From positions 120 through 64,119 of the forward strand of contig JBDRLW010000009.1 in assembly GCA_043812655.1 (NCBI GenBank): a stretch of DNA of 64,000 nucleotides, written 5' to 3'. This document shows, in pieces, positions 1-57,475 of this stretch. Numbering within the stretch: the first letter of the stretch is position 1; every line of letters starts with the position of its first letter. A program made the translations under genes and the position numbers. Under the pieces are notes generated by a model, which was not told where the DNA came from, did not search any database, and saw only the letters and a list, made by a program, of their open reading frames with translations. This DNA comes from a bacterium. GTDB lineage: Bacteria > Margulisbacteria > WOR-1 > O2-12-FULL-45-9 > XYB2-FULL-48-7.

Positions 1-754
1 CTAAGGTTGGATTACTGATAATGTTTTCCAGTGTATTCCCGTGGGCTGTCCCAATTAATTGGACCCCCCGTTCGGCGATCGTCCGGCAGGCGATCGCTTC
101 CGCCTCTGTCCCGATCTCGTCAACAATGATCACTTCGGGCATATGGTTTTCCACCGCCTCGATCATGATATGATGCTGTTCTTCAGGGGTCGCGACTTGC
201 ATCCTTCTGGCCCGCCCGATCCCCGGGTGCGGGATATCGCCATCACCGCCGATCTCATTGCTGGTGTCGACCACGATCACCCGTTTGTTGAATTTATCAG
301 AAAGGACGCGCGCCGCTTCGCGCAATTTTGTCGTTTTGCCGATCCCTGGCGGCCCCATGAAAAGGATGTTTTTCTTTGCTTCGATCACGTCTTGGATAAT
401 GTCATTGGTCCCATAGATCGCCCGGCCAACGCGGCAAGTCAGGCCGATCACTTTCCCCTGGCGGTTGCGCATGGCCGAGATCCGATGGAGCGTCCGCTCG
501 ATCCCCGCCCGGTTATCGCCCGAAAATTGGCCGACCCGGGCAGTAACAAAATCTATATCACCCTGGTTGACCGTCCCGCCAATGAACATGCTCCTGGCAG
601 CAAACCTAGCTTCAGCCGGTTTGCCAAGGTCCAGGACAACTTCAACTAATAACTGCAGGTCTTTTGATTCTTTGAGGGTATTTTGGATATCAAGGGGTAA
701 AACTGCCAGGAGTTTTTCAACTTCTTCGCCGATCGCTTCTGGTGGCAAAGTCAT
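1..754 (-). CDS. R3H-domain AAA ATPase (SpoIIIAA/Ycf45-like); 3' end runs off the window
   Basis: Absent from the ORF track because there is no stop in the window. Manual minus-strand translation from the ATG at 752-754 gives MTLPPEAIGEEVEKLL...DNRAGIERTLHRISAMRNRQGKVIGLTCRVGRAIYG...FMGPPGIGKTTKLREAARVLS...VVDTSNEIGGDGDIPHPGIGRARRMQV...IIVDEIGTEAEA...GVQLIGTAHG. Walker A/B motifs and family-typical blocks are present. Confidence 0.75.
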   Translation of the reverse strand, partial: MTLPPEAIGEEVEKLLAVLPLDIQNTLKESKDLQLLVEVVLDLGKPAEARFAARSMFIGGTVNQGDIDFVTARVGQFSGDNRAGIERTLHRISAMRNRQGKVIGLTCRVGRAIYGTNDIIQDVIEAKKNILFMGPPGIGKTTKLREAARVLSDKFNKRVIVVDTSNEIGGDGDIPHPGIGRARRMQVATPEEQHHIMIEAVENHMPEVIIVDEIGTEAEAIACRTIAERGVQLIGTAHGNTLENIISNPTL

Positions 755-4124: not shown

Positions 4125-4274
4125 GCCCTCATCCGCTGGCGCAAAAGACTCCTCCTTCTCCCAACCTTGCCTGCCGGCAGGCAGGAGGGAGAAGGTAAGA
4201 CACAATGTTGATTTGGTAAGTACCCCTCTCCCTTTGGGAGAGGGGGAAATGTTAAGCGCTAACCGGGTGAGGGC
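4125..4274. repeat. nested GC-rich palindromic element (intergenic)
   Basis: Outer arms are gccctcatccg (4125-4135) and cgggtgagggc (4264-4274). Inside are the hairpins ctccttctccc...gggagaagg (4152-4196, containing cctgccggcagg at 4170-4181) and cccctctccc-ttt-gggagagggg (4223-4245). Confidence 0.8.
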
Positions 4275-5618: not shown

Positions 5619-5725
5619 CCCTCACCCCGACCTTCGGTCGACCCTCTCCCAGAGGGAGAGGGTAGTAAAACAATTTTTGTCTCAAACCACCCCTCTCCCT
5701 CTGGGAGAGGGGCCGGGGGTGAGGG
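5619..5725. repeat. nested GC-rich palindromic element (intergenic, same family as 4125-4274)
   Basis: Outer arms are ccctcaccccg (5619-5629) and ggggtgaggg (5716-5725). Inner hairpins are cgaccttcggtcg (5628-5640), accctctccc-aga-gggagagggt (5641-5663) and cccctctccc-tct-gggagagggg (5690-5712). Confidence 0.8.
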
Positions 5726-5746
5726 CTAATATGTTATAATTTAACT

Positions 5747-12493: not shown

Positions 12494-15400
12494 CTATTTC
12501 AACACCGCAACCTTCCCTCTTCCCCCAACACTCCGATCCCCTATTCTCGCTGTCACTTCAAAGGGATAGATCCCGTTCATCACCATGTCCCCTCGCCCAT
12601 TCTTCCCATCCCACTCAACATCATTATATTTATTCCAGATCGATGAGCCTTCACCGTTAGTTGTGCCGTCAATTTCATTCACTAGCGAGCCGGTAATATC
12701 GTAAATGCGGATCCTGACATCGCTAGCGTCGGTCGAGAGCCGATATCTTATTTTCGTCTTCTCTTTATTGGGGTTAAACGGATTGGGGTAATTGGTAACA
12801 TCCGACAAAGTTAGATCTGGTTTAACGGTAAACGACCACGTTTCTGACGTCGCCGCTTCGTTAGTCGAGAGGGCTGTAACTTTCCAGTAGTAAGTGTCCC
12901 TATCAAGTCCAGGATCAAATTCGTGGATGGAGTAGTTGTAGTAATAGAGAGTTGAATCAGCTTTGTCTTGTGAGCCGCTGTTCGGCGATTTAGTAAAGCT
13001 TTGGTTAGCGATCGAGAAAGTATCATTCTTGGCAACATCTATCCTATATTCAGTGGCGTTTCCTTTCTTATGCTTCCATTCAAAGGTGGGACGGACAGAC
13101 TGAACATTATCGGTTTTGTCTGTTGGGGCAACAAGGGTTGGAGCTTCAAAGGTAATAGAATGAGTGATCGGGCTTCTTGTAACTGCGTATGCCGTAGTAA
13201 AATCATAGACACCATCAACATCACCACCGGAAGGCCGCCAACAACCACTACCATCTAACCAATGAAAGGCAAGTCTTTCTCCCGTCATTGGTTTAAATAT
13301 CCCCATCCACTCCCCAGCACCACCTGACATTAATGCAATTTCAGCCTTTCCATCTCCCGTAAAATCACCAGCCGTGATACAAAAGAATTCATTTGACGGG
13401 TCTTGAAAACTAAAACTATTTATTAATGTCCCTGAGTTATTGTATGTATACACATAATTAACCCAACCAACGTATATGGTTGCAATAGGCCCATCCAGGG
13501 CGATTTCATCTATACCGTCTCCGTTAAAATCCCCACAAGTTATTGTTTTAACATTTCTTGGGGTGTTCCAATTCCTATAAGAATTGTTTCCCGCGCTGCC
13601 ATCGGCAATCGAACTGGGTTTAAACAGATAAACAGCCAAGCTGTTTTGGATGGTCATAGCTAACTCATCCATGCCATCCCCATCAAGGTCGCCGGCTGCT
13701 ATTTCATTACCATATCCCTTAAAACTTTTGACTAGAGTCCCTGATGGAAGGCTATAAATATAAACCCAGGAATTCGCGGGATTAACCACGGCCAACTCCT
13801 CAACACCATCGCCGTTAAAATCACCGCCGGTTAAACGAGCGTCTTCAGGCACATCAAAAGAATAAAGCGGGCTGGCAGTCCGATTTCTTGGGTCATAGAT
13901 CACGACATCATCGTTGGCTTGATTCCTTAAAGCCACAAACATCGGCTTCTCATTCCCCTGATAATCGACTAGAGTGGTAAATAACATCCAGTCAACACTT
14001 GTATTCCAGTAACTGGCAGAATTAAACGATTTCCCGTCTTTAGCTACCTTAATAACCCTGACATACTCGTTCGCTCCAGAATTATCATCGATCATTATCG
14101 CTTCATCCCGACTTTTCACCCTTACTTTCTTGGTCGCGGTCAAAGTTGCGACATTTAACAACGCGTCATTCACAGTGGCCAAAGCCGAATATCTCCCAAC
14201 AGGAACAAACGATCCAGAATTGTTTTTTAGGTCCCAATTAACTTCAGCGCCAACATTTGGGAAACTCCTGACCACATTTCCACCGGCATCCCTAATCTCT
14301 AAATCTATCCTGGTCGCACCTGAAACATTGCAATTAATCGTAGTAGAATTATTAATCCCGTCTGGGAAAGCAATATTACGGCTAAAAGCTATGTCGTTAA
14401 TAGTCGGCGGCGTATTATCAACCGTAAAAGAATATGTCGAGCTGGTGCTTGAATTGCCAACCGCATCAACGGCCACAATGTAATAATTATGGCTCCCCTC
14501 ACTTATATTCGCCCCCGGACTCCATGTCCACGAAAGATTAATTGATGGCGAAGAGGTATATTTTAAACCTCCATCAACATAGACTGAAAAGGTTGAAGAT
14601 TCATTGGCGCTGGCAGAAAATGTTATTGAATCATAATTCCCATCCGCATTTCCAGGGCTAATAGCATTTGGGGAAACAGAAACACTAGAAATCACAGGAG
14701 AATCAAGGTCTATTAAAACCGAACCCGAAGACCCCCAATTACCAATATTGCCAGCCACGTCTTTAGCTTTAATGGAGGCATAATAAGTTCCGCTGCTTAA
14801 ATCTCTGTTGGTTGTCCAGGCGTTGACGTTGCCAACCCATGTTTCACTAACAATATTCCCTCCACCACTGGTCGTTCCAATTTGTATATAGTACCCATCT
14901 ATTCCTGAAAGAGAATCAGAACTCGGCGCCCAGCTCCAGGTCGGGCGCCTATTTGTTGTTGGGGTGGTTGTTGATGGGGTATAAACTGAAGGTCTAATTG
15001 GATCCCGACAATAAGTTTTAGAATATGTCGTTTGGTTGCCGGCATTATCCCAAACCCTGACAAACAATGTCCGGGGTCCCGTGCTCGCATGCGTAGTTGA
15101 CGCCGATGTCGCGGTATTACAACCAGCGGGATCATTCGTCGGCCAATTATCCCAACTCCATTTAAACCCTCGATAATCAGAGCCACCTGTGTCAGATAAG
15201 CTTATGGTTATCTGGTTATCCGAAATATACCAGGCATCCGCCGCTTGGCCGCTAAAAGTCGCCGTTGGCGGAGTGTAATCACGTTTATAGATCTTTGAAG
15301 TTTGGGTCAGGTTGCCCGCACTGTCCCAGGCATTAACATATAATGTACGCGGCCCTTGGCTAGAGTGAGTCGTCGTGCCGGTAGCAGAAGTATTGCAACC

Positions 15401-18400
15401 AGCTGGATCAGTCGAGGGCGGATCATCCCAAGACCATTTAAAGCCTTGATAGCTATAATTATCAGATAAACTGACTGTTATATTATTGTCCGCGCTGTAC
15501 CAAACTTCCTCGGCTTGGCCGCCAAGGACGACCAAGGGCCCGGTCATATCAACTACAACCTCTTTCGTTTGAATATCCGCGATGTTGCCTGCCTGATCAG
15601 TTGAGGAAAGTTTAAAAGTATAAGGCCCATCAACCACGGAATCTCCAGTCCCGTCCCAGACTTGCAAATACGTACCATTATTTTCCCAGCCGCCAAAAAG
15701 TGTTTTAGTTAGATTCGCTCCCTTATAAACCGCAACCGTAACCTCGCAGCTATTCCCGTTATCAGCCACTTCGTAAGTCAGAGTCGTTGTTTTAATGCTT
15801 GAGTTAGTATTTCCCGGCGAGAAATAATACGGGGCGGCAGAAAGATTAGAGATCACCGGCTTTTCGTTATCCACCACCACCGTCCGCTTTAATATATTGT
15901 TAACGGCTGAATTGCCGGCAAAGTCTTTAACATCAACTACCATGTAATACGTGCCATCAGTGACAAACTGGCCAGCATCATTTTTACCATCCCAGAATTC
16001 CCAGGTTAAAGTCCCCGACTGCGCGTCAGCATTAGCTACTACAGTACGGATCAAATTAGCCATGGCGCTATCGCTGTAAACCTTTATTGAATATTTACCA
16101 ACCTTTTTAGTGTCGCCGGCAACCGCTTGCGCTTCGATCTTCTCTGCTGGCTTAGTAATGGTCGGATTGCTAGCTAGATCGATCATAAAATAATACTTGG
16201 CCTGTTTTTGGGCTGGGTCTAAACTATTACCATTAGGAGAAATATAATGAGGATCTGGATTATTCCCTCCGGGATTAACATGAGCGGCATCATATTCAAA
16301 CTGCTCCGGTTCTCGCAAGGTCAGGATATTATCTTGGATCCAAACCGTCCCTCCCCACTTCTTGAGCGTTAAGTTATTAGCCCGGTCTCGCCCTTCAACA
16401 ATAAAGGCATATTTCCCTGGCATTGCATAGCTGTCATTATTATCGTCATATGTTGCCAAGTTATTATCGATCTTGCCATCCCAAGCCACTGTTTGGTTCC
16501 CCTCTTGCCAAACATCGTTAATTAAGACTTTAATTAAATTATCATTGTTAAAATCTGTTTTAGTGTAGGTTGCCTGGTTATCAGGCACTTTGTAGACTTT
16601 AACTGTAACCTTTGACTTTTCCGCTAAATTATAATAAAAGGTCGTTGATCTTGGTTTGTCTGTCCCATCAGGGTTGGCGTTGGTTGAGAAGCTTTGTGGA
16701 TTGGAAATATATGCACCTACGATTTGAGGCTCGGCGATCGCTATTGTCGGATTAACCAGATCAATAACGAAACTTTCGCTTGAGGTTGAAGTTTCAACTG
16801 TCCCTTCATTCAGCGCGAAGTCGAAACCGGAAATCGTAATATTCGCGTTGCCGTTGGCGTCGGTATTTTTTATGACATATTTATACTCATAAGCTTCCGT
16901 CGTTTGTCCCGTAAACCGGCGACTGAACATCGCGGTTTCCTCATTTACCTTAACGCTAGGATTAAACTTAAGCTGTTCTGAAGAATCAAAGGTAATTAAT
17001 ACTTCCGCCCCCTCTTTGGCAAATTTCGTAAATTCAGGGTTGTCGCCTATTTCGGATTTGATATTATTGAAAACTGGTTTCACTGTATCCACCTCAAAGG
17101 AGGTAGTAAATAAAGCCGGATTTAGTGCCAGGTCAGCCACCTCAATTGAAACCTGCGCCAGTCCATCGTAGCCAGGCACAACATCGTACTTAGCTTCACA
17201 TAGACCAGAGACTGAAGACCACAGACCAGTGACAGGGATCAATTGAGGTGAGGCACCGTTTTGAGTAACGTAGACCTTGGGTGCTTCCTTCAGCGGCTCA
17301 CTGACATTAAATTTAATGCTGGCTTGGCCATTTACCGCTGGGACTGCCGCTGGGTTGGGAGCAACCGATAGATTGCTGACGACGGGATTAGTTTTGTCGA
17401 TCGTTACTATCTTTGTCTTCAAAACCGGATTAAAGGCCAGATCCCTCGCTTTAACCGAAACAGCCGCTGGCCCTTCGGCATCTTCAGTTAAAACAATATA
17501 ACTATACTCATAATTATTCCCTTCAGCCGTGATCAGCCCGGCTGTCTTTAATGTACCATCGCTCATCGTGACTTCAACCGTCGGTGTTTCCGCAAGTGGT
17601 TCAGGGAAATTCAATTTTACTCTCATTTCAGCGTCAAGTTTCGCGTAAGCCGTGTTGATCGAAAAATCGGTCGGTTCCGGCTGGCTGTAATCAACCTCGA
17701 GCGGAATGATCTTTGGAATAGCTGTTGTCCCCAGCGCGTCTTGGGCGGAGATTTTGACGTAATAGGAGCCAGGATTAAGTGGCCCGCCTGCCGGCGAGGC
17801 AGGTAAGTCGTAAGAATTAAGTCCGTTATATTCATAAACATAATTTCCGGCAGAATTATTAAAAATCTTGCTCCAAACCGCTTCGGCGCTTGAATTTATC
17901 ACTTCGATCTTAACCAAGGCTTCGCCCGTTATATAAAAAGTCGGATAGTTAATAGAATAATTAAAAATCACTTTATCTTTCGCCCCATCGCCATTGGGTG
18001 AAAAGATCGGAATATCGGTTGAAATGTCGACCGTCGGACGGGTGGAGATAGCGTGAATCGTGAGTCGTGATTCGTGAATCGTTTCCAGCATATCTTGGAT
18101 GGAGATCACGCATTCATATCGTCCATCGTCTATCGTCTTTCGTCCATCATCTTTCCCATCCCAATAGAAAGAATATGAACCAGCGGTTTGTTGTTCGTTG
18201 TCCACCAAGCGTTTCACTGTCGCTCCAGCCGCGTTAAGAATGGTCAAAGAAACTTTATACGGCCCTACTCCGCCCGCGAGGTTGTAGCTTATCCGCGTCT
18301 GGTCGCTCAAGCTGTCGGCGTTTGGCGTGAACGGATTGGGCGCCGCATTACTGCTGACCTGGAATTGGTTGGGGACTACTGAGAAAGTTTCGGTTGTTAC

Positions 18401-21400
18401 TTCTGACAGGTTAAAGGCGCGATCGGTAGCGACGATCTTAAAGTATGAGGAACCTGAGAATGAAATTCTCGGTTCCTCATAAACAATTGTATATTCACCC
18501 GCATTTTGCGCTTCAGCGGTTACCAGAGTCGAAATTAAATTACCAGCCAGATCAAACACTGAAACTTCGACCGACGAGTTTTCCGGCAGCTGATATAAGA
18601 GCTTAGCTTGTTTCTTAACATAATCAACCACCAGCGGCTTCGTCGTAATGACCGGCGGAACGTTATCGACTAAGACAGTATTCGTAACTGTCGCGGGATT
18701 GGTGCCATCCGGATCAATTGCTTTAATTTGGAATTCATACGACCCGTCAAAAACACGATATTTGTTGCCAACAGCTGTTGAACCGGTATATTCGGAATTG
18801 AAATCCCCATACCATCTTAAGGCATGTTCACCTTTAGTTTGGACTTCTTCATTGACCAGGATTTTTATCGCCTTCCCTCCCTCGCCAATGATCGCCGCGC
18901 TGACCTTCACATTATCCCTGGCCAGATAATATTTGATCTCGGTAAAACTATTATTCGGATTGACCGGCGCGAAGGGATCAGGTTCGGCGTAGGCGTAAGG
19001 GACAAGAGTTGGTTCGCGGTCGACGACCAGTGGATCGTGAAGCGTGAAACGTGAAACGTTGCCGACATTGTCTACCACGGTCGCTTCTACCGAGTAAGCC
19101 CCCCCAATGAGCTCGTTGCGTGAGCCGCGGCCATCCCATGTCCAGGAACCGAGAGACGAAGAGACGAAAGGACGAAGGGACGATTTATCCGTCGGATAAT
19201 AAAATCCTTCCGTCGGCCCTTCGTGGCTCCTAAACTCTCTCCTCGTCTCTCGTCCATCGTCCTTCGTCACTATCGTTGTTACATACGCCGGCTCGCTAAA
19301 CTTGTACCAAATCTTAGTTGTATCTTTGACACCATCATCATTGGGAGTAAAGGGATTGGGATCGGCATTGAAGCCAATGATTGTTGGCGGTGTGGTATCA
19401 ACAACAGTTTGGCTGATTACATTATTACTAATGTTTCCAGCCTCGTCGATCGCGTAGACCGTGGTAGAGTAAGCTCCGTCGGCCAGGTGTTCATTTAATG
19501 ACTTACTAGTCACAAGACTCCAATCTCCAGTTAGAGTATCTCGGCGATATAGATTAAACCCATCTTTTATCCAAGATAATTCAACTTCTTTGTTGGCTTC
19601 AGCTGAAATCACCTCATCCACCACTCGACTCGCTTCGCTCGCTCGTGGTCCCCCTTCTCCACTTCGTGGAGAAGGTCGAATATTAAAATAGATTTTCCCC
19701 TTCTCCGAACTCCTAACTCCATACTCCACACTATCGTACTTCCCGTCGCCGTTGGGGGAAAAGGCAAAGAGATTTTGGCTAGCTTCGACAGACGGAGCGA
19801 TGGTATCTTTGACGATGGTTACATCACTAATCGTCCTGATATTCTTATCTTTTTCTAAATGGGAAGAGACAAATATATAGTTATTCCCCTCTTGCAATAA
19901 GTTAACATTCTCAAACTTAAAGTTGCCGGCAGCCGCCTCCGCCGTCAACCGCGCGAAATACGGTTCTTCCTTCGCGGGATCTGGAGGCAAATTCTCTGTT
20001 TTAACATATAAGCTAAGAACCGATCCTGGTTCAGCTGTGCCATAAATCGTCACCTTATCTTTATTGGTTATATAGTTATCCGCAAAAACCATTGGGGCAG
20101 AAAGGGAAAATTTGCCGGGCAACAGCGCGTAAGTAGAAAAATGGTCGAGCGGAGCGTAAAAGGCGTATTGGTGTTCACCGTTATTGATTTCCACTTCCTG
20201 CTTATTCCCAGAAACGATCTGCAGATCACCGCCAGCAGTCACTTGATGGATATTCATCGGCAAACCTAAGTTTGTCCCTGGATTTGGCAATGGTTTATTC
20301 ATATCCCAAAGCCCTAGTTTTGGATCGGCTAGGTCGTCAAACGTGTAAACAAAACGCAAAGTCGGACGCTGGTCTACTCCTTCTAATGTACTTGCCCCGA
20401 GCGAAGTCGAGGGGCTGACCGTGAATTTCCAGGGGGAAGGCTTGATCTCCACTATTGGTCCGGATGTCATGATGATCGGCCGGTTACGAATAAATATCTC
20501 GCTCATCGTCACTGGTGTAATCGTCACCAATTTATCTTGGCCAAACGCCCCTTTAGGAAAACTTAGTTCCGCCCGTTTATAAGTACTGTAAACCTGGCCG
20601 CCTGTAGCATCCCTAACCAGCGTTCCGATCGAAATATCTTGGGTAGAAATAAAACTACCTGACCGGAGTAAAACCGTATACTGTCCATTTAACCGTGAAA
20701 CATTCCACCAGGCTAAGCGCCCGTTTTTACCAGTATCGGATCGTTCAATGGCCTGCCAGGTCTTACCGTCAAAATACGATAATTCGTACGGTTCTGACGC
20801 TGATCCTTCGATCTCAACATAGCGAGATTCAGAAGCATCGAGTTTAAGTTTGAGGGTAAAAGTATCGTCCAGCCGCCGGCTATTTTTATTGATCTTAACC
20901 AGCGCGAGATCCCTATTATCACCGCCGGTCTTATCTTTAATATTTATTTCCCAGCTATCAATCACTACATTAGGATTATCAATGGGGGTTACCCCATCAT
21001 TTTTAAACGGATCATATTTTAAAAATGCATATTTTAAAGCCGAGGCTGATTGGTAATCAGGGCTGACTTTGTAAGAGTTAGCTATTTTGATTTCCCGCTT
21101 GCCTAAAAACTCGTTCTCATTAAAATCCAAAGCCATACTATTTATCTTACCGGCCAAAGGCTGTAAAGTATTATCATCACCTGTTGTCCAGGCAACTCCT
21201 ATTGTGTCCAAATCCTCGGCTCCATACGCCGTATTCTTGTCACCGCTCGCGGGATTTATTTTAATGCCAGGAGTATTACTGGCAACCTGATAATTAACAT
21301 CACTAACATAATTTGGAACTTTTAAAAACTGGCCAAAGCTTTGGCTCGCGCTCCAAATACTCTTCCCAACTCCTTTATCAAACCTCACCTGGCCAGTTCC

Positions 21401-24400
21401 AGTCCGGCTATTATTTGCATCAGCTAACCGCGCCCTAACTTCATCCGCGTCTAGTTCCCACCAGGTGCCGGCAGGTGAAGTTCCCGTATATTTTTGGGGA
21501 TTGGCTAAAAGCTCCGCTTTCTTTGCTTTCCAAATATCATCATATTTATTCTGGTCGGTTAGCGGCCAGCTAAATTCAAACGGCGACGGCGGGTTGCCGC
21601 CTGACGCGTAAGTAAGATTTGTATTAATTTTAATGGTTGAGGAGCTAGTCTCGGTAAAATCCCCGCTTTCCGGCTTAGTGATCGGGATAAACTCAAAATA
21701 CTCACCAGAAAGATAGGAGTCGTAACCCACAGAAGAGGCAAGGGAATCTTTATAGCCGATAAGATTTGATTTTTGCGCTTCACTATTTAGCGCCGCAACC
21801 AGATCACCCCAATTTTTCTTCCCTTGCAGATCGGTTTTTAAATCTTTGTATGGCGCGCTAGGTTTCGCCGTCGGATCAGTAAAAAATAATTTACCTGGGA
21901 AACCTAATCCTTTATTAATGTCAGTTAAATACATGGAAAAGTCTTTTGTCCGTTCACTTTCCGGCGTCTTCGCACTTATAAATCCAAACCAAGGGACAAA
22001 GCGGTTAGTAAGGCGGGAATAAGCGATCGGGGCTTCTAATTGATAAGTTAAGGTAAAATACGGGCTTCTCCCAAAGCTTCGGCCATCTGTCCCCCAAGTG
22101 GGCGTAACTTTAAAAATTCCTTTTTCAGATATTTCCGGTGTGCCAACAAGATATTTTGGAACACTCGAGGACAAAGTAGCTATTTGACTCGCTCCTAAAT
22201 AAGAGGATGCGACTGCTGGGTCATCCGTCGTCGTTGACACCTGAAATACGCCGTTAATAAGCGCTGTTATTGGATAATTGACCTTCCCTAAAATACTACT
22301 GACAGCGGGATTAGCTTCAATCGTAACAACATCCAACACCCAGGTCAGGTCCCCGGCCGGGCGAAAAACCAACGTCAAGTCAATCTTATCTACATGGCCA
22401 TCCGGTTCTCCAACCCCGCGCAAAGCCGCATCGTGAAATTGAAGAACATCATATATCTGTTTTACTTCGATGCTCGGTATATTACTAGTTAAACTAAAAG
22501 TTTGAACGTGTTGTTTGGTTGTCCTTTGGCCTTCTCCCTTCCACCCCTGCAGAAAAACATAGTTATATTTTGTATAATAAACCGTAGCCAGCACCTCAAC
22601 ATTGATATCAACCTGCTTAAATCCCCGATGCATCAGCCCGGCAAATGGGACAAAAGGATAAGCGGTAATTAATTGTTTACCGGTGGCCGTTAAAGTATAG
22701 CTAAAATCTTTTGGCGGATGGTACCAGCCAAGCCCCTTGGCTTCAAAATAGTAAGGCGAATCGCCCTGCGCTATCCCATTTTCCCCGATCGGTGAAAGAG
22801 AAACTATTTTGGCGTCGTTCTTAAATTCTGCCAGAGTAATATTATCAATTTCTTTGGTTTCACTCGCTGACCCATCTTTGGCCGCCACATTTAATTTGAT
22901 CTTATACGTTCCACCTGGCACAACCAAGCCGCTGTCAGGATCCGGATAATTTCCCTTCCAGGCAAAAGTTAATTGATTGTTAGGGTTAGTCGTCCCCAGA
23001 ACTTCTGTTCCATTTAAGAGAGTCGCAACATAGTCGCCGTTTTGTTTTTGGACCGTAGCCGTAACAATTGAGTCTTTAGACACGTTGTAAAAGACTGATA
23101 CCCTATCTATTCCGCCTAAAGCGCTGAATTTACGATCGAGCGGCTCAACTTTTAAATTTGAAAGTTCAAATGGTGTTTTGACTTGGACAATGGCTTCATC
23201 TGTTGCCATCCCCACCCCATCGGCCCCTTCCGCTCGCACCCTGACAATATAAGTTCCATTATCAACGTAAGCGCCGGTATCATATTGGCCGTTCCACTCT
23301 AAAGAGTTCGGAGTATTGAGTTCGGAGTTAGGAGTTGGTGAGGTTTTCCCCATGCTTGTCACATCAACTAATTTCTGGCTGGCGGCGTCGATAATGATCG
23401 GTAAATAAGTTTGGGAATATTTGGAAATTCCCAGATAAACATTGTCAGCGGTGATCGATGGCGAGGTTGGGTCTTCGTCAATCTTTGGCGTGATCATTAT
23501 TTGACCGGATGAAATCTTAAAGTCTATTCCGCTCTCTCCCCCAGCCATTGTTTTATCCCAACTTATTAGAGCGTTAGTTGTAGACGGAGAACAATTAACG
23601 GCATTAATATTTTTCAGCTCTCCCCCGATCGCGATAATGCTACCGGTGAATTTGTGGTTAGAACCATTTGACGACCAGCGGAGATGGTAGCCGGCATCAT
23701 CACTCCAGATAAAGTAACCAAGGTCTGCACCAGGTTTGTAGTCCGGTTTGCCGATAAACGGAGCACCAGCAATGTTGGGAAAATATTTGGAGAAAACGAC
23801 CGCCTCATCCACCACTCGACTCGCTTCGCTTGCTCGTGGTCCCCCTTCTCCACTGCGTGGAGAGGGTCGGGAAGGCTTGATAATTTCTATATAAATATTG
23901 GCTGGTTTAATGCTGTTGATAAAACCGAGTGGCAGTTTAACAGAATCGTCACCTTTAAATTCGACCGATGATAGAACAGGATTTAACTTAACATAGGGAT
24001 TTTGAAGTGATGAAGTTGTAAAGCTATCATTATTTACCTTGACCGTTCTCGTCGCGCTAAGTGTTTCACCGTTCTCCTCGTTAACTTCAACTTTAATCGT
24101 GTAATCGCCGTTCGCAAGATTGTTCGTGTACAAATATGCTAATGTCGAATTATTTTGCAGTGGCCTGATGGAAATATTTTTGGGCCCTTGAGGGTCGCGA
24201 TTGGTTTGGGGGACTTCAATGAAATCTGACTGCCAGCCATCAACCCTCACCCCCGTCCCCTCTCCCAAAGGGAGAGGGGTGGAGCTTGTTCCTTTCCTAT
24301 AATATACTCGATAATCCTTAAATGGCTTATCATTTGTCCAGTCGGGATCTATGGCGGTACCGCGGATGGAGATCGTCCCAGCCACTTCCGTATTATCATC

Positions 24401-27400
24401 CAAGGGATATGAGATGACCGGCGCTATCCCATCTTTAACGCATGAGGCGTAAGCGATCCCAACGTTCCCATAATCATCTTCGGCAATGATCTGGAAACGA
24501 TAAGCCCCCTTAGGTTGGTCGCTCCCATTCCAAGCGACATTATTAGCTGCTGTGTTGGAAGCTGGCGCCGAGGGGATCGTCTCCACTAATTGGCCAGTAT
24601 TGGAATTATAGATCTTTATTTTTACGCTTTTTGCGTCTGTAAGGCTGTAAGAAAGATTAGTTTTGTAGGAATTATTCCCTATATTTGATAACACATAAGG
24701 ATTGGTAATTTGCCCGAATATTGAGGGCGGCGTCCGATCGATCCGGACAGCTTCAAGCGTTCGCGGCAGGCTTTCATTACCCGCGTCGTCCCTGGCGATC
24801 ACTTCTACCCGATGGAGGCCATCTTCGGGGCCTTTAGTGAACATGTCGTTGTATTTCCAGGTGTAGGAAGCGAGATAGTTAGGAGTTGGGAGTTCGAAGT
24901 CCCTCGACAGTGCTCGGGGTGGCTGGGATGGCGAGCTTGTCGAGCCATTCGGAGCCGGAAGGGATTGGGCAAGATACGCTGTTGTTGAATTAGTTGTTAG
25001 ATTATTCAGTTTAATAATAACCGTCGATTTTTCGTTTACCTTCGCGGTTAATCCTAGCTCCGTAGTATTGGAAGTCATTGGATTGGGTGAAACGTCAACA
25101 CCTAAAACTGTTGGCGGCGTAGCGTCGATCGTGATCTGCGTCTGGCTGGTTACGGAGTTTCCAGCTAGGTCGGAGGCGGTAATTTTAATTATGTAATTAC
25201 CGTCTACGACCCTCACCCCTGTCCCCTCTTCGCCACTCCAGTTGAAAAAGTTTTCCCCTTTAGAAATCGAGTCGGTGGTGGCGATAGTAGTTACAAGTTG
25301 GTCTTCGGTCTGTGGTCTTTGGTCTGTAGTTTTGTAGAGTTCGCAACGGACAGAGGCGAGGTTTGGCGAGGCTTCGTCGGAAGAAGTGTATTTGATAATC
25401 GCAGGCGCCCTGGGAGAGTATGGTTGCAACGGCTGGATCGCCAGAGTTGGCGCTTGGGTGTCGATAATAACATTAATAACCGCTTGCGAGACGCCAACGT
25501 TACTATTAGCGGTCACAACCAACGAATATTCGCCATCGGGCAATGTTTCTTTTGGTGTATATTCAAAATGAAGATGTTTATCATAATCTCCGCCGCTGAT
25601 CGTCGCCTTCACGTCCGAGGTAACATCAACCTCTTCAGTCCCATTGATCATTTTAGCAGTTGTTATTTCCAGCCCGTTTATCGCGTCTTCGCTGTACGTG
25701 GCTAACCCAAAATCACCGCTAAATGCTGGCTTATTATTTTTAGTATACGTTCCAGGGAGCGGCTTAAGGTTGGAGGCTACAAATGGGATGGTGTTAAGTA
25801 TTATCTTTAAAAGCTGGTTGGAGGTATAACCGACTTTGTTTTTTCCACGGAAAGCAAGGACGTTCTGGCCTTCTGCCAGCTTCAAGCCATCGACACTAAA
25901 ATGTCCCCATTCATCTATATTGGTAATGTTTTTCCAGGCGGCAAAGTTTTCCGAATACTGGAAATACTGCATTTTCTTCGGCATAAAGTCGCGCAGGACG
26001 CCTTCTATTTTAGTTGGAGCCTCTTTAACAGTAATTGCAGTAATCTGCTGGTTTTTCCCGTCGATCACTACCGGTAAAGCGGTCGGATCTTTTCCGGCAA
26101 AAGTATAGCCTTTAACCTCTACGGTATGGGTTGTGCTCAAGGTCGTTATTTTCCCATCCGCTTCTTTTGTTTGGTTAGTCAATAAAACTAATGCTTGCGG
26201 CTTAACAGAGGAGGTCGTTGATGAACCAACGTCTGGCTTATCGAATAAGGCTTGTTCTAATAAGCTGGGATCGCCATCAAGGACTATTTTGTCTTTCATG
26301 GTGATATGAGCAAACATAAATCCCAAGGCTCCATCCTCCTGATCAACGGTAGCAAAATTAGCTACCGCCGCGACAGCTATTCCAATATAAGTAACCGCTC
26401 TGACCGGAGCAGGTAAAAATTGGAACGCAATATCGAGGCCTGCAGGGATGATATGTTCCAATGCCCCCAATTGCGGGCTTCTCATCGTATAGGTAAATCG
26501 TTTTGCATTGGCTAAATTAGCAATCCCTTCCCCTAATTGACTGGATCTCTCTCCCACCAAATCACCGTCACCGAAAAACGGATAACCGGTTAACATTGTA
26601 AAATATGATCCCATAAATCTGCCTTCAAAATTGTCTAGTTCGGGATTAGCAAAAACATTGGCTATACTCGCCATCATTAAAGATATGGGGTTCAATCCCA
26701 CTAAAAATGTTCCCGCCTGATTTAATCTCCAGGGAACGGGCACACCTCTTCCGGCAATTAGACGCTGTTTAACCGGTGTATAACTTCCGAAATCCGCAGA
26801 ATTTAAATTTCGTATAAAATCACTATCCGGCAGTAAATCCATAAGAGCAGGTGACTTATAACGATTCATAAAAGCACGCACCCCGGCATTAACGCTTGAC
26901 GAAACAAGACTATACGCGCCGACAACAGCAAAATATTTGGACAACTCGTCATTGCCATTCATCGCGTAATAAACAGATAACCCAATTCCTCCCAGAAAGA
27001 CTACTCCCTCGTAGAAATGTATTTCCTGTGTATTTCTGGCATAAGAAGCCCCACCAGCTCCCGTGTGCGGAGTATCTATCGTAATAAATTTTTCAATATC
27101 ATCTTGATAATACCGATTCCCCCGCTGGTCTTTACCATACATATATGACATGACTGCGAGCCCCCCCATGGAGTGCCCAAGAACTATGAATTTTTTGGGG
27201 ATCTCGTTGTCAGGGCCTGTTGAATCAATTGGAAATCTTTTTGGTTTACTCAAACTACCTGGCCCATAATCATGGAACCATATTTTAAAATCTTCTTTTG
27301 CTTGTTCAAGCCAGCTATTACCAGTTCCATTTTGACCATTATCTAATCGTTTAGTAATTTCCCATGGTTTTCTTTGGTTCCCATTATCTCCGATATCATC

Positions 27401-27706: not shown

Positions 27707-28560
27707 TTCAGTTGTTTTATATTGCTCCCATCTATATTAATTAGCCATACGCCATTACTTCTGAATTGACCATAAACTATTTTATTTGCTCCAGGATTGA
27801 TTTTAGGTAAATATCCTCTAAAATTCGATATTTTAGCGTGAAACTGAGGAGTTGCTACATTCACGTCAATATATCCATATTCATTTCCAGCGCTCCCATA
27901 AATTTCATTTGTTGCGATTGAAGAAACGGTCGCACTACTTATGCTCTGGTCTCCCAAGTTGGTTCTTCCTGTTCCATCAATATTTATAATAGCCGTTGGA
28001 GTATACAAACCATCTAAATATTCAAAAACAATTTTAGTCCCATACTTCCATGTAACAGCCTCTCCACTTGTTGCAATATTCAAATTTCCTGTGCCATCAA
28101 TATTTATCACATTAATTCCGCCGCGGTTTTTCAAATACACTAACCTTGCCTCATCCGGTCCCCAATCAAGAGAACTAATACTTTCAGTCGTTGGAGAAAA
28201 CTCATAAACCTTAGAATTATCAGCTCTTTTATAAATTGAAATAGTTTCATCACTGATTAAAGCAGCATAAGTTCCTTTGGGCGAAAAATATGGATAGCTG
28301 CTATATGGCAGAATGGCTTCATTGTCCCCATCAGTATCCATGGTCACATAAGAATAATCTGTTCCAAGGGTTATTGTTCCCATCGGTTCCTTACGATAAT
28401 GGGTGACAGCCTTCTGACAGTAAATTAATCCCTCCGGCGTCCAATTTGGATATTCGTAGCTTGTTTCATCATAGTAACTTGTTCCACACCCCCCCATCAT
28501 CATCATTGTTAACCCCAACACCATCAGGCCTAGGATCGGAAGAAACTGCTTCGTTTTCAT
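27703..28560 (-). CDS. lipoprotein with TolB-like (PD40/WD40-like) beta-propeller repeats
   Basis: Signal peptide plus lipobox MMMMGGC. Repeated SP(K/D)G...INIDGTG / INIDGSN motifs are present. ATGA overlaps occur at both ends (28557-28560 and 27703-27706). Confidence 0.6.
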   Translation of the reverse strand: MKTKQFLPILGLMVLGLTMMMMGGCGTSYYDETSYEYPNWTPEGLIYCQKAVTHYRKEPMGTITLGTDYSYVTMDTDGDNEAILPYSSYPYFSPKGTYAALISDETISIYKRADNSKVYEFSPTTESISSLDWGPDEARLVYLKNRGGINVINIDGTGNLNIATSGEAVTWKYGTKIVFEYLDGLYTPTAIINIDGTGRTNLGDQSISSATVSSIATNEIYGSAGNEYGYIDVNVATPQFHAKISNFRGYLPKINPGANKIVYGQFRSNGVWLINIDGSNIKQLK

Positions 28561-30077: not shown

Positions 30078-30151
30078 AATTCACTTCCTGTCCCTCACTT
30101 TAGCCAAAGATTAAACCAGCAAATACTTGAGAAGCAAAAAGAATAATAGAC

Positions 30152-50642: not shown

Positions 50643-50690
50643 TTTCAAACTGCGCCTGGCGGGATTTTCCCGATGCTCGCTTCGCTCGAT

Positions 50691-50788
50691 CGGGATCCCG
50701 ACATTCGACTTCGTCGAATCGTCGGGACTTCGGAACCCTTGTCTCTCGTTAATTTGCGCCCGGCGGGATTTGAACCCACAACCCTTAG
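50691..50788. repeat. 98-nt direct repeat, copy 1 (tRNA-Arg 3' portion plus downstream palindrome)
   Basis: Identical on visual comparison to 50827-50924: cgggatcccgacattcgacttcgtcgaatcgtcgggacttcggaacccttgtctctcgttaatttgcgcccggcgggatttgaacccacaacccttag. Confidence 0.9.
50755..50788 (-). pseudogene. tRNA-Arg(CCG) 3' fragment (T arm plus acceptor 3' strand)
   Basis: It matches the 3' ~34 nt of the intact tRNA at 50891-50964 and diverges at the anticodon stem. Confidence 0.85.
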
Positions 50789-50826
50789 TCCCGATGGTCA
50801 TTATAATATGCTTATTATGGAATCAT

Positions 50827-50964: not shown

Positions 50965-50967
50965 AAA

Positions 50968-56383: not shown

Positions 56384-57475
56384 ATGCTAATTATTTTTAA
56401 TAACCAACAATTTTCTTCTCCCCTTGAAATAATTAAGTGCTTTCATTTATCTAAAGTCAAAGACTGTTTTGCCAAAATGGAAAAAGCCCTGGCTTCTGGG
56501 CATCACCTCGCCGGGTTCCTCTCCTACGAAGCCGGTTATGCTTTCGAAAAGACCTTTGCCGACAATAAAACTTATGATTTCCCATTAGTTTGTTTTGGGG
56601 TTTTTAAAAACCCTCACCCCCTGCCCCCTCTCCACTTTTCAACCCCCTCTATGATCTCCCCCTTAATAAGGGGGAGATGTCCGAGCGAAGCGAGGACAGA
56701 GGGGGTAAGCTACTACAAAGCCCTAAAAAAAATCAAAAAACTTTTAGCCGCCGGCGACACCTACCAAGTCAACTACACTTTCAAGCAGAAATATTTTTTT
56801 AACGGCGATCCTTTCTCTCTTTTTACTAATCTACTAACTAACCAACCAACACCCTGCTCCGCCTTTGTCCAAACTGACGATTTCTCCATCCTTTCACTGT
56901 CACCAGAATTATTTTTTAAAAAAGCTAAGGATAAAATAATAGTTAAACCGATGAAAGGGACCTTTTTGCCCGGAAAAGAAATTGTCGACAATAAAAACCG
57001 GAGCGAAAACCTGATGATCGTCGATCTATTACGTAACGATCTGGGGCGGATCGCCAAAACCGGAACAGTTAAAGTCAATAAACTCTTTGAGATCGAAAAA
57101 CATCCGACCTTGTCCCAAATGACCTCGACCATTGAGGCTAAAACCAGGAAAGATTTATCACTTTACGAATTATTCAAAAACCTTTTCCCCTCCGGCTCCG
57201 TCACCGGCGCGCCCAAAGTCAGGACCATGCAGATCATTAGGGAATTAGAGAAGGAACCGCGGCGGATCTATTGCGGCACGATCGGCTATATTACACCTCA
57301 GCGCGACATGCTCTTCAACGTAGCCATCCGCACTCTACTAATCAGGAGTTCTCACTCCAAACTCCGAACTCCCAACTCCGAACTAGGCATCGGCAGCGGC
57401 GTCACTTACGCTTCTGACCCTAAAAAAGAATACGAGGAATGCTTGCTTAAATCAAAGTTTCTGCGCGGCGCTTGA
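56384..57475 (+). CDS. pabB: aminodeoxychorismate/anthranilate synthase component I-like (chorismate-binding enzyme)
   Basis: GDTYQVNYTFK, SPELFF, KPMKGT, ENLMIVDLLRNDLGRI, FPSGSVTGAPKVRTMQII, RRIYCGTIGY and GSGVTYASDPKKEYEE. It carries two in-frame repeat insertions. Confidence 0.8.
   Translation: MLIIFNNQQFSSPLEIIKCFHLSKVKDCFAKMEKALASGHHLAGFLSYEAGYAFEKTFADNKTYDFPLVCFGVFKNPHPLPPLHFSTPSMISPLIRGRCPSEARTEGVSYYKALKKIKKLLAAGDTYQVNYTFKQKYFFNGDPFSLFTNLLTNQPTPCSAFVQTDDFSILSLSPELFFKKAKDKIIVKPMKGTFLPGKEIVDNKNRSENLMIVDLLRNDLGRIAKTGTVKVNKLFEIEKHPTLSQMTSTIEAKTRKDLSLYELFKNLFPSGSVTGAPKVRTMQIIRELEKEPRRIYCGTIGYITPQRDMLFNVAIRTLLIRSSHSKLRTPNSELGIGSGVTYASDPKKEYEECLLKSKFLRGA
56611..56705. repeat. nested palindromic element in frame within pabB
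   Basis: ccctcacccc..., then an outer stem ccccctct (56643-56650)/agaggggg (56698-56705) and an inner 9-bp stem atctccccc/gggggagat (56654-56678), plus cgagcgaagcgag. Encodes HPLPPLHFSTPSMISPLIRGRCPSEARTEG. Confidence 0.85.
57353..57387. repeat. heptamer array AACTCCG-type in frame within pabB
   Basis: cactcca aactccg aactccc aactccg aactagg. Encodes [10 protein letters not shown]. Confidence 0.85.

What the first reader, a model, noticed from the sequence alone, without database searches (positions are those of the whole stretch)
19612..23869. 67-nt hairpin-bearing unit present twice, in frame, 4.2 kb apart in the giant gene
Copies at 19612-19678 and 23803-23869 differ at 3 positions. Both encode (R)PSPRSGEGGPRASEASRVVDE in otherwise unrelated protein context. 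Copy A contains a perfect 10-bp stem, ccttctccac-ttc-gtggagaagg. The unit also holds the 13-mer ctcgcttcgctcg, which recurs at 50676-50688 (intergenic, beside tRNA fragments) and, reverse-complemented, inside pabB (56682-56694). Nucleotide-level identity within divergent surroundings argues for insertion of a mobile palindromic unit rather than domain duplication. This is analogous to Rickettsia palindromic elements, which are established to insert in frame into genes.
Basis: partly seen in the sequence, partly recalled or inferred. Interest (0 to 1): 0.7.

Follow-up and report, generated by a model that had tools for sequence, protein, structure and literature searches.

The report
Hairpin repeat inserted in giant gene
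The 67-base repeat is real and belongs to a previously undescribed family of small GC-rich hairpin repeats in Margulisbacteria/Saganbacteria that sit between genes, bracket a small DUF559 nuclease gene, and have repeatedly been written in frame into surface loops of one giant cell-surface protein.

Summary
Confirmed. The copies at 19612-19678 and 23803-23869 are 64/67 identical with unalignable flanks. Both lie in frame in a 5070-aa Ig-repeat surface protein gene, and the flanking 250 aa are not homologous.

The unit is modular: hairpin 1 (CCYTCTCCAC-GAA-GTGGAGARGG), a variable hairpin 2, and a GGTGG(A/G)TGAGG tail. Related copies occur in five other Margulisbacteria/Saganbacteria/WOR-1 assemblies. 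They show compensatory stem changes and nested hairpin insertions.

Copies are also intergenic, as inverted "tails-outward" doublets in the window. In 4 of 4 genomes examined they bracket a DUF559 (Vsr-like) endonuclease gene, which resembles a REPtron.

In orthologues the same loops are filled, empty, or hold other repeats, in a pattern that needs independent gains. AlphaFold2 places both peptides in low-confidence coil between two beta-strands.

A profile search of 1.84 billion proteins finds the translated element essentially only in this giant-protein family.

Best reading: a non-autonomous REP/RPE-like hairpin element tolerated in permissive loops. DUF559 as the mobilising enzyme is inferred, not shown. 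I class it as a new variant of a known kind.

The parts
12494..27706 (-). Host gene. It encodes a 5070-aa secreted or surface protein with an N-terminal PGAP1/DUF676-like hydrolase, arrays of Ig-like domains (Big_13, FlgD_ig), FG-GAP repeats, and a C-terminal FlgD_ig/Por_Secre_tail-like domain.
   Evidence: The homologues are candidate division WOR-1 / Saganbacteria / Margulisbacteria proteins.
19612..19678 (-). Copy A of the two-hairpin element ('site A'). Layout: CGACC, then hairpin 1 (CCTTCTCCAC-GAA-GTGGAGAAGG), GGGG, hairpin 2 (ACCAC-GAGCGAGCGAAGCGAGTCGA-GTGGT), then the tail GGATGAGG. It encodes aa 2677-2698.
   Evidence: covariance model score 77.8 bits. AlphaFold2 gives mostly coil with pLDDT<50 between strands. 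It takes the place of MSNANGVTRTLLNQE in P0005.
23803..23869 (-). Copy B of the same element ('site B'), with 3 synonymous differences from A. It encodes aa 1280-1301.
   Evidence: 73 bits. AlphaFold2 places the insert in coil of low pLDDT (10-residue block means 59 and 47; below 50 at residues 61-69), between strands 42-51 and 74-85 of the segment. The loop is hypervariable among 16 orthologues.
24245..24281 (-). In-frame 'type 1' family member (hairpin 1 and tail, no hairpin 2): CCCCTCTCCC-TTT-GGGAGAGGGG-ACGG-GGGTGAGG. It encodes PLPLGEGTGVRV. The orthologous loop in P0016/P0018 holds a two-hairpin copy.
   Evidence: (I1, I8).
25210..25245 (-). In-frame remnant (GAGGGGACAGGGGTGAGGG, encoding EEGTGVRV). 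It sits in the WDG...DG loop that carries full two-hairpin copies in L007 (P0008) and L023.
20395..20414 (+). Core module inside the giant gene in the opposite orientation: CCCC-GAGCGAAGTCGAG-GGGG. It encodes part of SPSTSLGAS, an insertion relative to homologues.
4127..4272 (.). Intergenic inverted doublet with tails outward. The left member, 4127-4198 (-), has the palindrome CCTGCCTGCCGGCAGGCAAGG nested in the hairpin-1 loop. The right member is 4221-4272 (+).
   Evidence: The doublet folds as one long hairpin, z = -5.5.
5620..5730 (.). Intergenic inverted doublet with tails outward. The left member, 5620-5665 (-), has hairpin 1, hairpin 2 (CGACC-GAA-GGTCG) and the tail GGGTGAGG. The right member, 5687-5730 (+), is type 1.
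   Evidence: (I1, I17). Fold z = -8.9.
56611..56702 (.). Composite of the same modules, in frame in a chorismate-binding (PabB-like) ORF just before the conserved domain. It holds the reversed tail CCCTCACCCCC, hairpin-1 arms, a nested ATCTCCCCCTTAATAAGGGGGAGAT, and GTC-CGAGCGAAGCGAG-GAC.
   Evidence: the conserved domain starts at aa 109; the composite covers about aa 76-108.
50669..50694 (-). Core module CGAGCGAAGCGAGC closed by CCCGAT/ATCGGG, beside partial tRNA-Arg duplications.
   Evidence: The same stem and core type serves as hairpin 2 of an in-frame copy in L023.

Best explanation
The 67-nt unit is one copy-type of a small, non-coding-by-origin, modular hairpin repeat family of the Margulisbacteria/Saganbacteria (WOR-1) lineage.

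A complete element has four parts:
- a short head (CGGCC);
- hairpin 1, a conserved pyrimidine arm, 3-4-nt loop and purine arm;
- an optional and highly variable hairpin 2;
- a conserved G-rich tail, GG(T)GG(A/G)TGAGG.

New hairpins are preferentially found nested in the loops or palindrome centres of older ones.

Between genes the elements occur as inverted, tails-outward doublets. The same arrangement brackets a small DUF559 (Vsr-like PD-(D/E)xK) endonuclease gene. This is the geometry that REPs have around RAYT genes (REPtrons).

The two window copies are singletons written into beta-hairpin loops of Ig-like domains of a giant surface protein. They are translated in the one frame that gives a Pro/Ser/Gly/Glu/Arg-rich disordered peptide. 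They persist because those loops tolerate almost any filling.

What is shown: family membership, hairpin covariation, intergenic and intragenic copies, independent filling of the same loops in different lineages, the loop location, and the DUF559 association.

What is inferred:
- that copies arise by an enzyme-mediated copy/insert process acting on folded single-stranded DNA;
- that DUF559 is that enzyme;
- that the peptide itself has no specific function.
For: (1) Family and structure.
- Related elements were recovered at DNA level from L004-L008.
- In the alignment, 97.5% of cells are paired and 5 pairs carry compensatory changes. 0/500 shuffles reach the covariation score, and slid controls collapse.
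- The base of the hairpin-2 stem covaries A:T / T:A / C:G in the window / L006 / L007.

(2) Dispersal.
- Covariance-model hits of 65-80 bits lie outside genes: L004 8481-8539, L023 4172-4238 and L023 9931-9986. Others lie inside genes.
- L023 carries 5 copies in 15 kb.

(3) Nesting.
- L006 carries a 21-nt palindrome inside hairpin 1.
- Window 4127-4198 carries the same nest.
- L004 8907-9036 is heavily nested.

(4) Independent gains.
- Site A is filled in the window and P0007, but native in their closer relatives P0018 and P0005.
- Site B is filled in the window, P0014 and P0001, but native in P0011/P0012, which are 79-80% identical to P0001.
- The upstream junction at site B differs between the window (after KPS) and L005/L006.

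(5) Element DNA is conserved far above its flanks.
- Window against L006: 62/67 in the element against 71-74% in the flanks.
- Between window copy A and the L004 copy at the same site, the first 32 nt (head, hairpin 1, GGGGACC) match at 31/32, read from the sequences printed. The 150-nt flanks at that site are 60-65% identical.
- L004 and L005 elements, at different sites in different genomes, differ only in a 3-nt loop.

(6) Loop location. AlphaFold2 gives low-pLDDT coil between two strands at both sites. Site B varies in length in 16 orthologues and also holds other repeats there.

(7) DUF559.
- The gene is bracketed by an element(-) upstream and an element(+) at its 3' end in L004/L018-L021, L023 and L022.
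- In a 60%-GC genome (L025) it is bracketed by about 90-nt composite inverted repeats with similar modules.
- 9 of about 16 model hits in those loci lie within 100 nt of the DUF559 gene ends.
- DUF559 belongs to the Vsr clade, which includes a group I intron homing endonuclease (PMC3424549).

(8) Intragenic, in-frame REPs, sometimes twice in one ORF, and head-head/tail-tail dimers are documented elsewhere (PMC3733652).
Against: - No transposition event, target-site duplication or terminal inverted repeat of a single unit was seen (junctions).
- Only two full copies exist in the 64-kb window, and both are in one gene.
- A profile of the translated element finds it almost only in this giant-protein family among 1.84 billion representatives. 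So this is not the broad gene colonisation seen for RPEs.
- All coding two-hairpin copies use one frame and one orientation. The three A/B differences are synonymous. Both facts fit selection on the peptide.
- At site A the element replaces a native stretch with identical boundaries in two lineages. That is awkward for simple insertion.
- No RAYT or other transposase occurs in the window.
- The source genome is not in the searchable collections, so a genome-wide copy number could not be measured.
- The DUF559 association rests on four loci found by homology to the first one.
Confidence: 0.68

Rival explanations
1. Plain intragenic duplication or gene conversion. A 22-codon coding segment was copied from one Ig-like domain to another within the giant gene, with no mobile element involved.
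For: Both window copies are in the same gene, frame and orientation and are 96% identical. Both follow a '...IYxxI' beta-strand of an Ig-like domain. The translated element is nearly confined to this gene family.
Against: The flanks are not homologous. The same element occurs intergenically and around DUF559 genes in several genomes. Related modules occur in window intergenic regions and in a pabB-like gene. Hairpin covariation changes the encoded peptide while keeping the stem.
Confidence: 0.04
2. A selected peptide cassette. The Pro/Ser/Gly-rich peptide (PSPRSGEGGP...) is a functional loop, linker or modification site of the surface protein. It spreads among giant genes by recombination, and the hairpins are incidental.
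For: Every coding two-hairpin copy uses the same frame, across at least 5 independent sites. All 3 differences between A and B are synonymous, P about 0.02. The GEGGP core is invariant in the peptide alignment. Occurrence is confined to one protein family.
Against: Non-coding copies keep the nucleotide sequence and both stems. A DUF559 ORF reads the same element in another frame (HEVEKGDH). Stem-preserving double substitutions alter the peptide (PSPRSGEGG vs PSPAPAGEGG vs PSPQRGEGG). A 21-nt palindrome nested in L006 adds PCLPAGR. The loop is predicted to be disordered and is filled by unrelated repeats in other orthologues.
Confidence: 0.1
3. A host cis-acting nucleic-acid structure, kept at these positions for the benefit of the long transcript or the chromosome. 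Examples would be an mRNA stabiliser or RNase processing site, a transcription or translation pause site, or a recombination or cruciform site.
For: Folding is strong and conserved (z = -3.4 to -4.1 for copy A) and covaries. Nucleotide conservation is well above the flanks across genomes. REPs are known to act as RNA elements downstream of genes (PMC3733652).
Against: Presence is patchy among close orthologues. The same loops are empty or hold unrelated repeats. There is no U-tract or other terminator feature. Copies occur in both orientations relative to transcription (the pabB composite against the giant gene). Nesting and doublets are typical of selfish repeats.
Confidence: 0.12
4. De novo hairpin creation by replication template switching (quasi-palindrome correction) at permissive sites, without any element-specific enzyme. 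Similar sequences arise because the same short templates are reused.
For: Hairpins are nested inside hairpin loops. The 22-nt core always has closing stems that differ by site: ACCA/TGGT, ACCT/AGGT, ACCC/GGGT, ATTC/GAAT, CCCGAT/ATCGGG. No target-site duplications were seen.
Against: Template switching makes local inverted copies. It does not make 57-67-nt units that are near-identical at unlinked loci and across genomes. It also does not explain the fixed head and tail or the consistent DUF559 bracket.
Confidence: 0.06

Closest known systems
Rickettsia palindromic elements (RPE; Ogata et al. 2000, as summarised in PMC3733652 and PMC3184786)
   Same: Both are palindromic repeats found between genes and also in frame inside ORFs that stay intact. 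The encoded 20-30 residues sit in exposed regions. One ORF can carry two copies.
   Different: The phylum is different and there is no known sequence relationship. The unit here is shorter (57-88 nt, against up to about 150 nt for RPE-1). It is modular and nested. Its translated copies are almost confined to one giant-protein family rather than spread over many housekeeping genes. It is associated with a DUF559 gene.
REP / REPIN elements with RAYT transposases (REPtrons)
   Same: Both have a 20-40-nt imperfect palindrome plus a short conserved tag at one end. Both form inverted head-head or tail-tail doublets able to fold as one long hairpin. In both, a small enzyme gene is bracketed by inverted copies. 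Occasional intragenic in-frame copies occur in both (PMC3733652, PMC3116915).
   Different: The tag is GG(G/A)TGAGG, not GTAG or CGTC. No Y1/RAYT gene was seen. The bracketed gene is a Vsr-like PD-(D/E)xK nuclease (DUF559). There is also a second, hypervariable hairpin.
Small dispersed repeats (SDR) of Nostoc and relatives (Elhai et al. 2008, Genome Res 18:1484; from my own knowledge, since the paper is not held in the library)
   Same: Both are very small hairpin modules (about 13-27 nt) found nested within each other and within palindromes, co-occurring with heptamer tandem repeats. The host lineage here is the sister group of the Cyanobacteria.
   Different: Sequence relationship was not tested. 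Here the modules are assembled into a larger unit with a fixed head and tail. In-frame occupation of protein loops and the DUF559 bracket were, to my knowledge, not described for SDRs.
MITEs (e.g. Nezha, Correia, RUP)
   Same: Both are short, non-coding, structured and dispersed, and are sometimes fused in frame to ORFs (PMC3184786).
   Different: A single unit has no terminal inverted repeats, no target-site duplication was seen, and the unit is well below typical MITE size. Only the doublets or the DUF559-bracketing pair resemble TIRs.

Membership tests
Rickettsia palindromic elements (RPE) | Hairpin-forming repeat present in many copies in the genome | tested here: inconclusive
   Hairpins and covariation are shown. 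Multiple copies per locus occur in related genomes (5 in 15 kb of L023). The genome-wide number in the source genome is not measurable.
Rickettsia palindromic elements (RPE) | Inserted in frame in ORFs that remain intact, at exposed positions of the protein | tested here: met
Rickettsia palindromic elements (RPE) | Colonises many unrelated protein-coding genes | tested here: not met
   Profile search of 1.84e9 proteins: 6 of 7 hits are the same giant-protein family. The only other case seen is a composite of related modules in a pabB-like ORF. Only one reading frame was searched.
Rickettsia palindromic elements (RPE) | Sequence homology to RPE-1..8 / Rickettsiales host | not tested
   No RPE sequences were compared. 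The host is Margulisbacteria/Saganbacteria.
REP/REPIN-RAYT | Short imperfect palindrome with conserved GTAG or CGTC terminal tag | tested here: not met
   The element ends are CGGCC... and ...GG(G/A)TGAGG in all copies. There is no GTAG/CGTC tag (definition from PMC3733652).
REP/REPIN-RAYT | Inverted doublets (HH/TT dimers) able to fold as one hairpin | tested here: met
   Window 4127-4272 and 5620-5730, both tails outward. Fold z = -5.5 and -8.9.
REP/REPIN-RAYT | Associated Y1 (RAYT) transposase gene flanked by the repeats | tested here: not met
   No Y1_Tnp domain in the 40 of 45 window ORFs of at least 150 aa that were scanned (the last five, 58819-63428, were not scanned), nor in the called genes of the loci. 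The gene flanked by the repeats is DUF559. Only about 250 kb was sampled.
MITE | Terminal inverted repeats and target-site duplication | tested here: not met
   Junctions of 8 copies show neither. The ends of a single unit are not inverted repeats of each other.
Cyanobacterial SDR | 21-27-nt hairpin units, nested insertions, embedded in palindromes or heptamer repeats | tested here: inconclusive
   Nesting and palindrome-centred cores are seen. Heptamer runs co-occur.
Rfam structured RNA families | Match to any curated covariance model | tested here: not met
   Only tRNAs at gathering threshold over the window. Nothing credible at E<=10 on 19580-19710.

The most novel reading that the evidence does not exclude
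The small DUF559 (Vsr-like PD-(D/E)xK) endonuclease genes bracketed by these hairpin composites are the autonomous members of an undescribed class of prokaryotic mobile elements. On this reading they are a nuclease-based counterpart of RAYT/REP 'REPtrons', present in several phyla.

Their non-autonomous hairpin derivatives would insert into hairpin loops and palindrome centres, including directly after tRNA CCA ends. In Margulisbacteria they would remodel surface loops of a giant adhesin-like protein.

The cross-domain 22-nt G.A-paired core CGAGCGAGCGAAGCGAG(T)CGAG would be a recognition module of this system.
Probability: 0.2. Interest if true: 0.8.

Novelty: new variant of a known kind. Interest (0 to 1): 0.6.

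Why it matters
Palindromic repeats written in frame into genes are a textbook curiosity, known mainly from Rickettsia and a few REP-rich genomes.

This work shows the same behaviour in an uncultivated sister lineage of the Cyanobacteria, with three additions:
- a modular, nested architecture;
- repeated independent filling of the same protein loops, which gives a natural map of permissive sites in a giant Ig-repeat surface protein;
- a consistent bracket around a DUF559 nuclease gene, which offers a concrete and testable candidate for the long-missing enzyme behind non-RAYT hairpin repeats.

It also warns annotators that Gly/Pro/Ser-rich 'low-complexity' loops in such proteins can be repeat-derived.

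Tried and rejected
- **Six-frame peptide query against 5.8e9 proteins: no hit at E<=10.** This was uninformative. The database does hold P0014 and P0008 with 15-16 near-identical residues, so the word/phmmer route is underpowered for 22-aa matches. The profile search replaced it.
- **Exact 22-mer scans of genome and metagenome collections.** The source genome is absent. L001 matches over only about 23 nt with nothing similar around it, and I take it for chance. L002 and L003 share only the hairpin-2 core, next to tRNAs.
- **BLAST of the unit against plasmids and phages.** Only E>=3 fragments were found. The Pseudanabaena 'DUF559' hit H2 is a weak 34-nt match inside a large protein and was dropped.
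- **Hairpin-1 pattern in viral contigs:** none.
- **Rfam:** no family.
- **Source contig by exact protein look-up:** not on record.
- **'Each genome has its own hairpin-2 subtype'.** This was suggested by the window, L004 and P0018. It was softened after L023 showed four different hairpin-2 variants in 15 kb.
- **'All six frames open' as a special adaptation.** Rejected: 5 of 6 frames are open, and 11% of composition-matched shuffles do as well.
- **TIR/TSD search at the junctions:** nothing.
- **Elhai 2008 could not be read.**

Full report
**1. The observation**

Positions 19612-19678 and 23803-23869 are 64/67 identical (BLAST E = 5e-27). Identity ends abruptly on both sides. Both copies lie on the coding strand of ORF 12494..27706 (-), which is 5070 aa long. 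They are in the same frame and both encode RPSPRSGEGGPRASEASRVVDE, at aa 2677-2698 and 1280-1301.

The codon-level unit is 66 nt. The window averages 45% G+C and the unit 63%. Copy A folds into a perfect 10-bp stem with a 3-nt loop, followed by a second hairpin. The fold z-score is -3.4 as RNA and -4.1 as DNA. The three differences between the copies are all synonymous third positions (P about 0.02).

At 50669-50694 and 56679-56697 it forms the loop of a hairpin with its own closing stem. It is therefore a genuine recurring module.

**2. Not a domain duplication**

The 250 residues on each side of the two copies show no similarity; the best BLASTP hit has E = 0.35.

**3. Host and relatives**

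The host protein has these parts:
- an N-terminal PGAP1/DUF676-like hydrolase;
- Ig-like arrays (Big_13, FlgD_ig);
- FG-GAP repeats;
- a C-terminal FlgD_ig/Por_Secre_tail-like domain.

Its homologues come from candidate division WOR-1, Saganbacteria and Margulisbacteria. The source genome itself is in none of the searchable collections.

**4. A family of elements**

The homologues carry related peptides, and their DNA was fetched. All copies share this plan:
- a head, CGGCC;
- hairpin 1, CCYTCTCCAC-GAA-GTGGAGARGG;
- GGGG;
- hairpin 2;
- a tail, GGTGG(A/G)TGAGG.

Hairpin 2 comes in two main forms.
- The short form is ACCATCGCC-NNN-GGCGATGGT, found in L004, L005 and L008.
- The long form is ACCNC-GAGCGAGCGAAGCGAGTCGA-GNGGT, found in both window copies, L006 and L007. 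Here N covaries as A:T, T:A and C:G.

On the 8-sequence alignment:
- 97.5% of cells pair;
- five pairs show double (compensatory) changes;
- 0/500 shuffles reach the observed covariation;
- slid controls fall to 46-79% paired.

A simpler 'type 1' form has hairpin 1 plus tail and no hairpin 2. It occurs in frame at 24245-24281 and as a remnant at 25210-25245. It also occurs in L006, L007 and L023.

**5. Copies outside genes; doublets; nesting**

A covariance model built from the alignment finds full copies in non-coding DNA:
- L004 8481-8539 (77 bits);
- L023 4172-4238 (72 bits);
- L023 9931-9986 (65 bits).

In the window it finds two intergenic inverted doublets with the tails pointing outward, at 4127-4272 and 5620-5730. 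Each can fold as one long hairpin, with z = -5.5 and -8.9.

Hairpins are often nested inside the loops of other hairpins:
- L006 has a 21-nt palindrome (CCTTGCCTGCCGGCAGGCAGG) inside hairpin 1, which adds PCLPAGR to the protein.
- The same nest occurs at window 4127-4198.
- L004 8907-9036 is heavily nested.
- A composite of the same modules lies in frame at 56611-56702 in a chorismate-binding (PabB-like) ORF, just before its conserved domain.

**6. The same loops, filled independently**

*Site B.* This is a loop of variable length between the conserved strands VYVEII and VYFKYFPN. Across orthologues it is:
- native (KTGTLETP and the like) in P0011, P0012, P0016, P0013, P0009 and P0010;
- filled by the element in the window, P0014 and P0001;
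- filled by unrelated simple repeats in P0002, P0003, P0004 and P0006.

P0001 is 79-80% identical to the empty P0011/P0012 but only 68% identical to the window. The upstream junction also differs between the window and L005/L006. At least two gains are therefore needed.

*Site A.* This site is filled in the window and in P0007. Their closer relatives P0018 and P0005 keep a native stretch that is alignable with P0004 and P0006. Again two gains are needed. At this site the element replaces about 15 native residues.

*Other loops.* Other loops are used in P0008/L023, in P0010, in P0016/P0018, and at a second site in P0018. The window itself holds a remnant at the P0008/L023 site.

*Conservation of element DNA.* Element DNA is much better conserved than the coding flanks.
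- Window against L006: 62/67 in the element against 71-74% in the flanks.
- Between window copy A and the L004 copy at site A, the first 32 nt (head, hairpin 1, GGGGACC) match at 31/32, read from the sequences. The 150-nt flanks there are 60-65% identical.
- The L004 and L005 copies sit at different sites in different genomes and differ only in a 3-nt loop.

**7. Position in the protein**

AlphaFold2 with orthologue alignments gives the following.
- Site B insert: coil of low pLDDT (10-residue block means 59 and 47; below 50 at residues 61-69) between two long strands. The model's mean pLDDT is 80.
- Site A insert: mostly coil with pLDDT below 50 between two strands. This model is weaker, with mean pLDDT 59.

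Both inserts are therefore tips of beta-hairpins in beta-sandwich domains.

**8. How widely is it translated?**

A profile of the encoded peptides was run against 1.84 billion representative proteins and returned seven hits. Six belong to this same giant-protein family and one is spurious. All coding two-hairpin copies use one orientation and one frame. So this is not the broad colonisation of genes seen for Rickettsia RPEs. Either only this very long, loop-rich protein tolerates the element, or only the Gly/Pro/Ser-rich frame survives selection. Only one frame was searched.

**9. A candidate partner gene**

In L004 a 157-aa DUF559 ORF is bracketed by an element(-) 22 nt upstream and a nested element(+) at its 3' end, with tails outward. 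Homologous DUF559 genes were looked up in other assemblies.
- L023 shows the same bracket, at 9931-9986 (-) and 10347-10404 (+).
- L022 shows it with a diverged variant: hairpin 1, an AT-rich spacer, and GGGATGAGG.
- L025, a 60%-GC genome, has about 90-nt composite inverted repeats. These contain a hairpin-1-like stem and a GAGCG-TAG-CGA core hairpin.

That is four of four independent loci. About 9 of 16 model hits in those loci lie within 100 nt of the DUF559 gene ends.

DUF559 belongs to the Vsr clade of PD-(D/E)xK nucleases, which includes a group I intron homing endonuclease (PMC3424549). The geometry is that of REPtrons, in which a RAYT gene is flanked by inverted REPs (PMC3733652). No RAYT or other transposase was found in the 40 of 45 window ORFs scanned, which cover 1041-58822. 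That DUF559 mobilises the elements is an inference.

**10. The hairpin-2 core**

The core CGAGCGAGCGAAGCGAG(T)CGAG can be drawn as a continuous hairpin. It would consist of C-G pairs alternating with tandem G.A pairs, closed by the GCGAAGC mini-hairpin. This structural reading rests on my own knowledge of tandem sheared G.A pairs and of d(GCGAAGC). Nearest-neighbour folding does not capture it. If correct, only the purine-rich strand would fold.

The same 22-mer, always between short inverted repeats that differ from site to site, occurs in several places:
- directly after the CCA end of tRNA genes in two unrelated low-GC assemblies (L002, L003);
- in 60-65%-GC viral contigs.

A close variant occurs in haloarchaeal plasmids. 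I found no description of it in Rfam or in the paper library. It remains unexplained.

**11. Comparison with known systems**

Behaviourally the element is closest to RPEs and to intragenic REPs. These are described as in frame, encoding 20-30 residues, and sometimes occurring twice in one ORF (PMC3733652).

Structurally it resembles REP/REPIN doublets and the nested small dispersed repeats of Nostoc.

It fails the defining tags of the GTAG and CGTC REP super-families. It has no TIR or TSD as MITEs do, and no RAYT.

I therefore class it as a new variant of a known kind, in a lineage for which I found no report of repeat elements.

**12. Verdict**

- The mechanism of spread is unproven, and DUF559 is a specific, testable candidate.
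- Interest is 0.6.

Noticed in passing
window 19703-19732, 23305-23335, 24874-24900, 57341-57384, 63952-63981; also 11231-11263, 18052-18084, 19029-19061, 18115-18154, 19239-19264, 17204-17227, 25307-25330: Several families of heptamer-periodic runs (ACTCCGA/ACTCCCA, CGTGAAT, CGTCCAT, GGTCTGT) are shared between intergenic DNA and coding DNA. They are read in frame in the giant gene (e.g. TPNSELNTPNS, KTTDQRP) and near the 3' end of the pabB-like ORF (LRTPNSEL). They are reminiscent of cyanobacterial STRR heptamers. P0003's orthologue is riddled with such runs.
   Followed up: partly
L002 4586-4616, L003 6119-6151; L010-L013; L014-L016: The 22-nt core CGAGCGAGCGAAGCGAG(T)CGAG occurs in unrelated organisms, always flanked by site-specific 4-5-nt inverted repeats. 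Twice it lies directly after the CCA end of a tRNA gene (tRNA-Ile(tat), tRNA-Val(gac)). It also occurs in about 63%-GC viral contigs, and as a variant in haloarchaeal plasmids. Its origin is unexplained.
   Followed up: partly
window 50669-50965: tRNA-Arg(ccg) is followed by two successive partial copies of its own 3' part (34 nt and 17 nt), within a 100-nt perfect direct repeat spaced 136 nt (50689-50788 / 50825-50924). The palindrome TCCCGAT|ATCGGGA is filled by two different inserts. It looks like tandem remnants of tiny tRNA-targeting integrations. Upstream, at about 50985-51105, lies what I recognise by eye as the C-terminal remnant of a GIY-YIG-like ORF.
   Followed up: partly
window 50696-50733, 50832-50869, 51273-51310: A third hairpin repeat family, TCCCGACGATTCGAC-GAA-GTCGAATGTCGGGA, is present in three copies around the tRNA-Arg locus.
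   Followed up: no
window 11913-12437 and 28557-29039; 11944-11986 / 12399-12441: Two genes of the 23S_rRNA_IVP family (PF05635, the fold family of DGR Avd proteins) lie on either side of the giant-gene block. One of them is framed by 43-nt direct repeats. No reverse transcriptase was seen in the 40 of 45 window ORFs scanned (1041-58822).
   Followed up: no
window 29107-29252 and 30144-30289: 146-nt direct repeats (82% identical) flank a KilA-N domain gene (29262-30077). This may be a small integrated cassette.
   Followed up: no
L025 9900-10000 and 10409-10500: In a 60%-GC genome a DUF559 gene is framed by about 90-nt inverted composites (AACCCCACCC ... GGGTGGGGTT). Each contains three hairpins, including CCCTCCCC-TTGC-AAGGGGAGGG and a GAGCG-TAG-CGA core. 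This suggests the DUF559/hairpin association extends beyond Margulisbacteria.
   Followed up: partly
window 53429-54189: A 66-nt periodic direct repeat lies inside ORF 52715-54367. It is an ordinary leucine-rich-repeat protein (LRR_4/LRR_8).
   Followed up: yes
window 4171-4181, 34643-34653, 17784-17802: The palindrome CTGCCGGCAGG (peptide LPAGR/PAGG) recurs intergenically and in frame in the giant gene (LPASPAGGP). It is the same module that is nested in the hairpin-1 loops of L006 and L004.
   Followed up: partly
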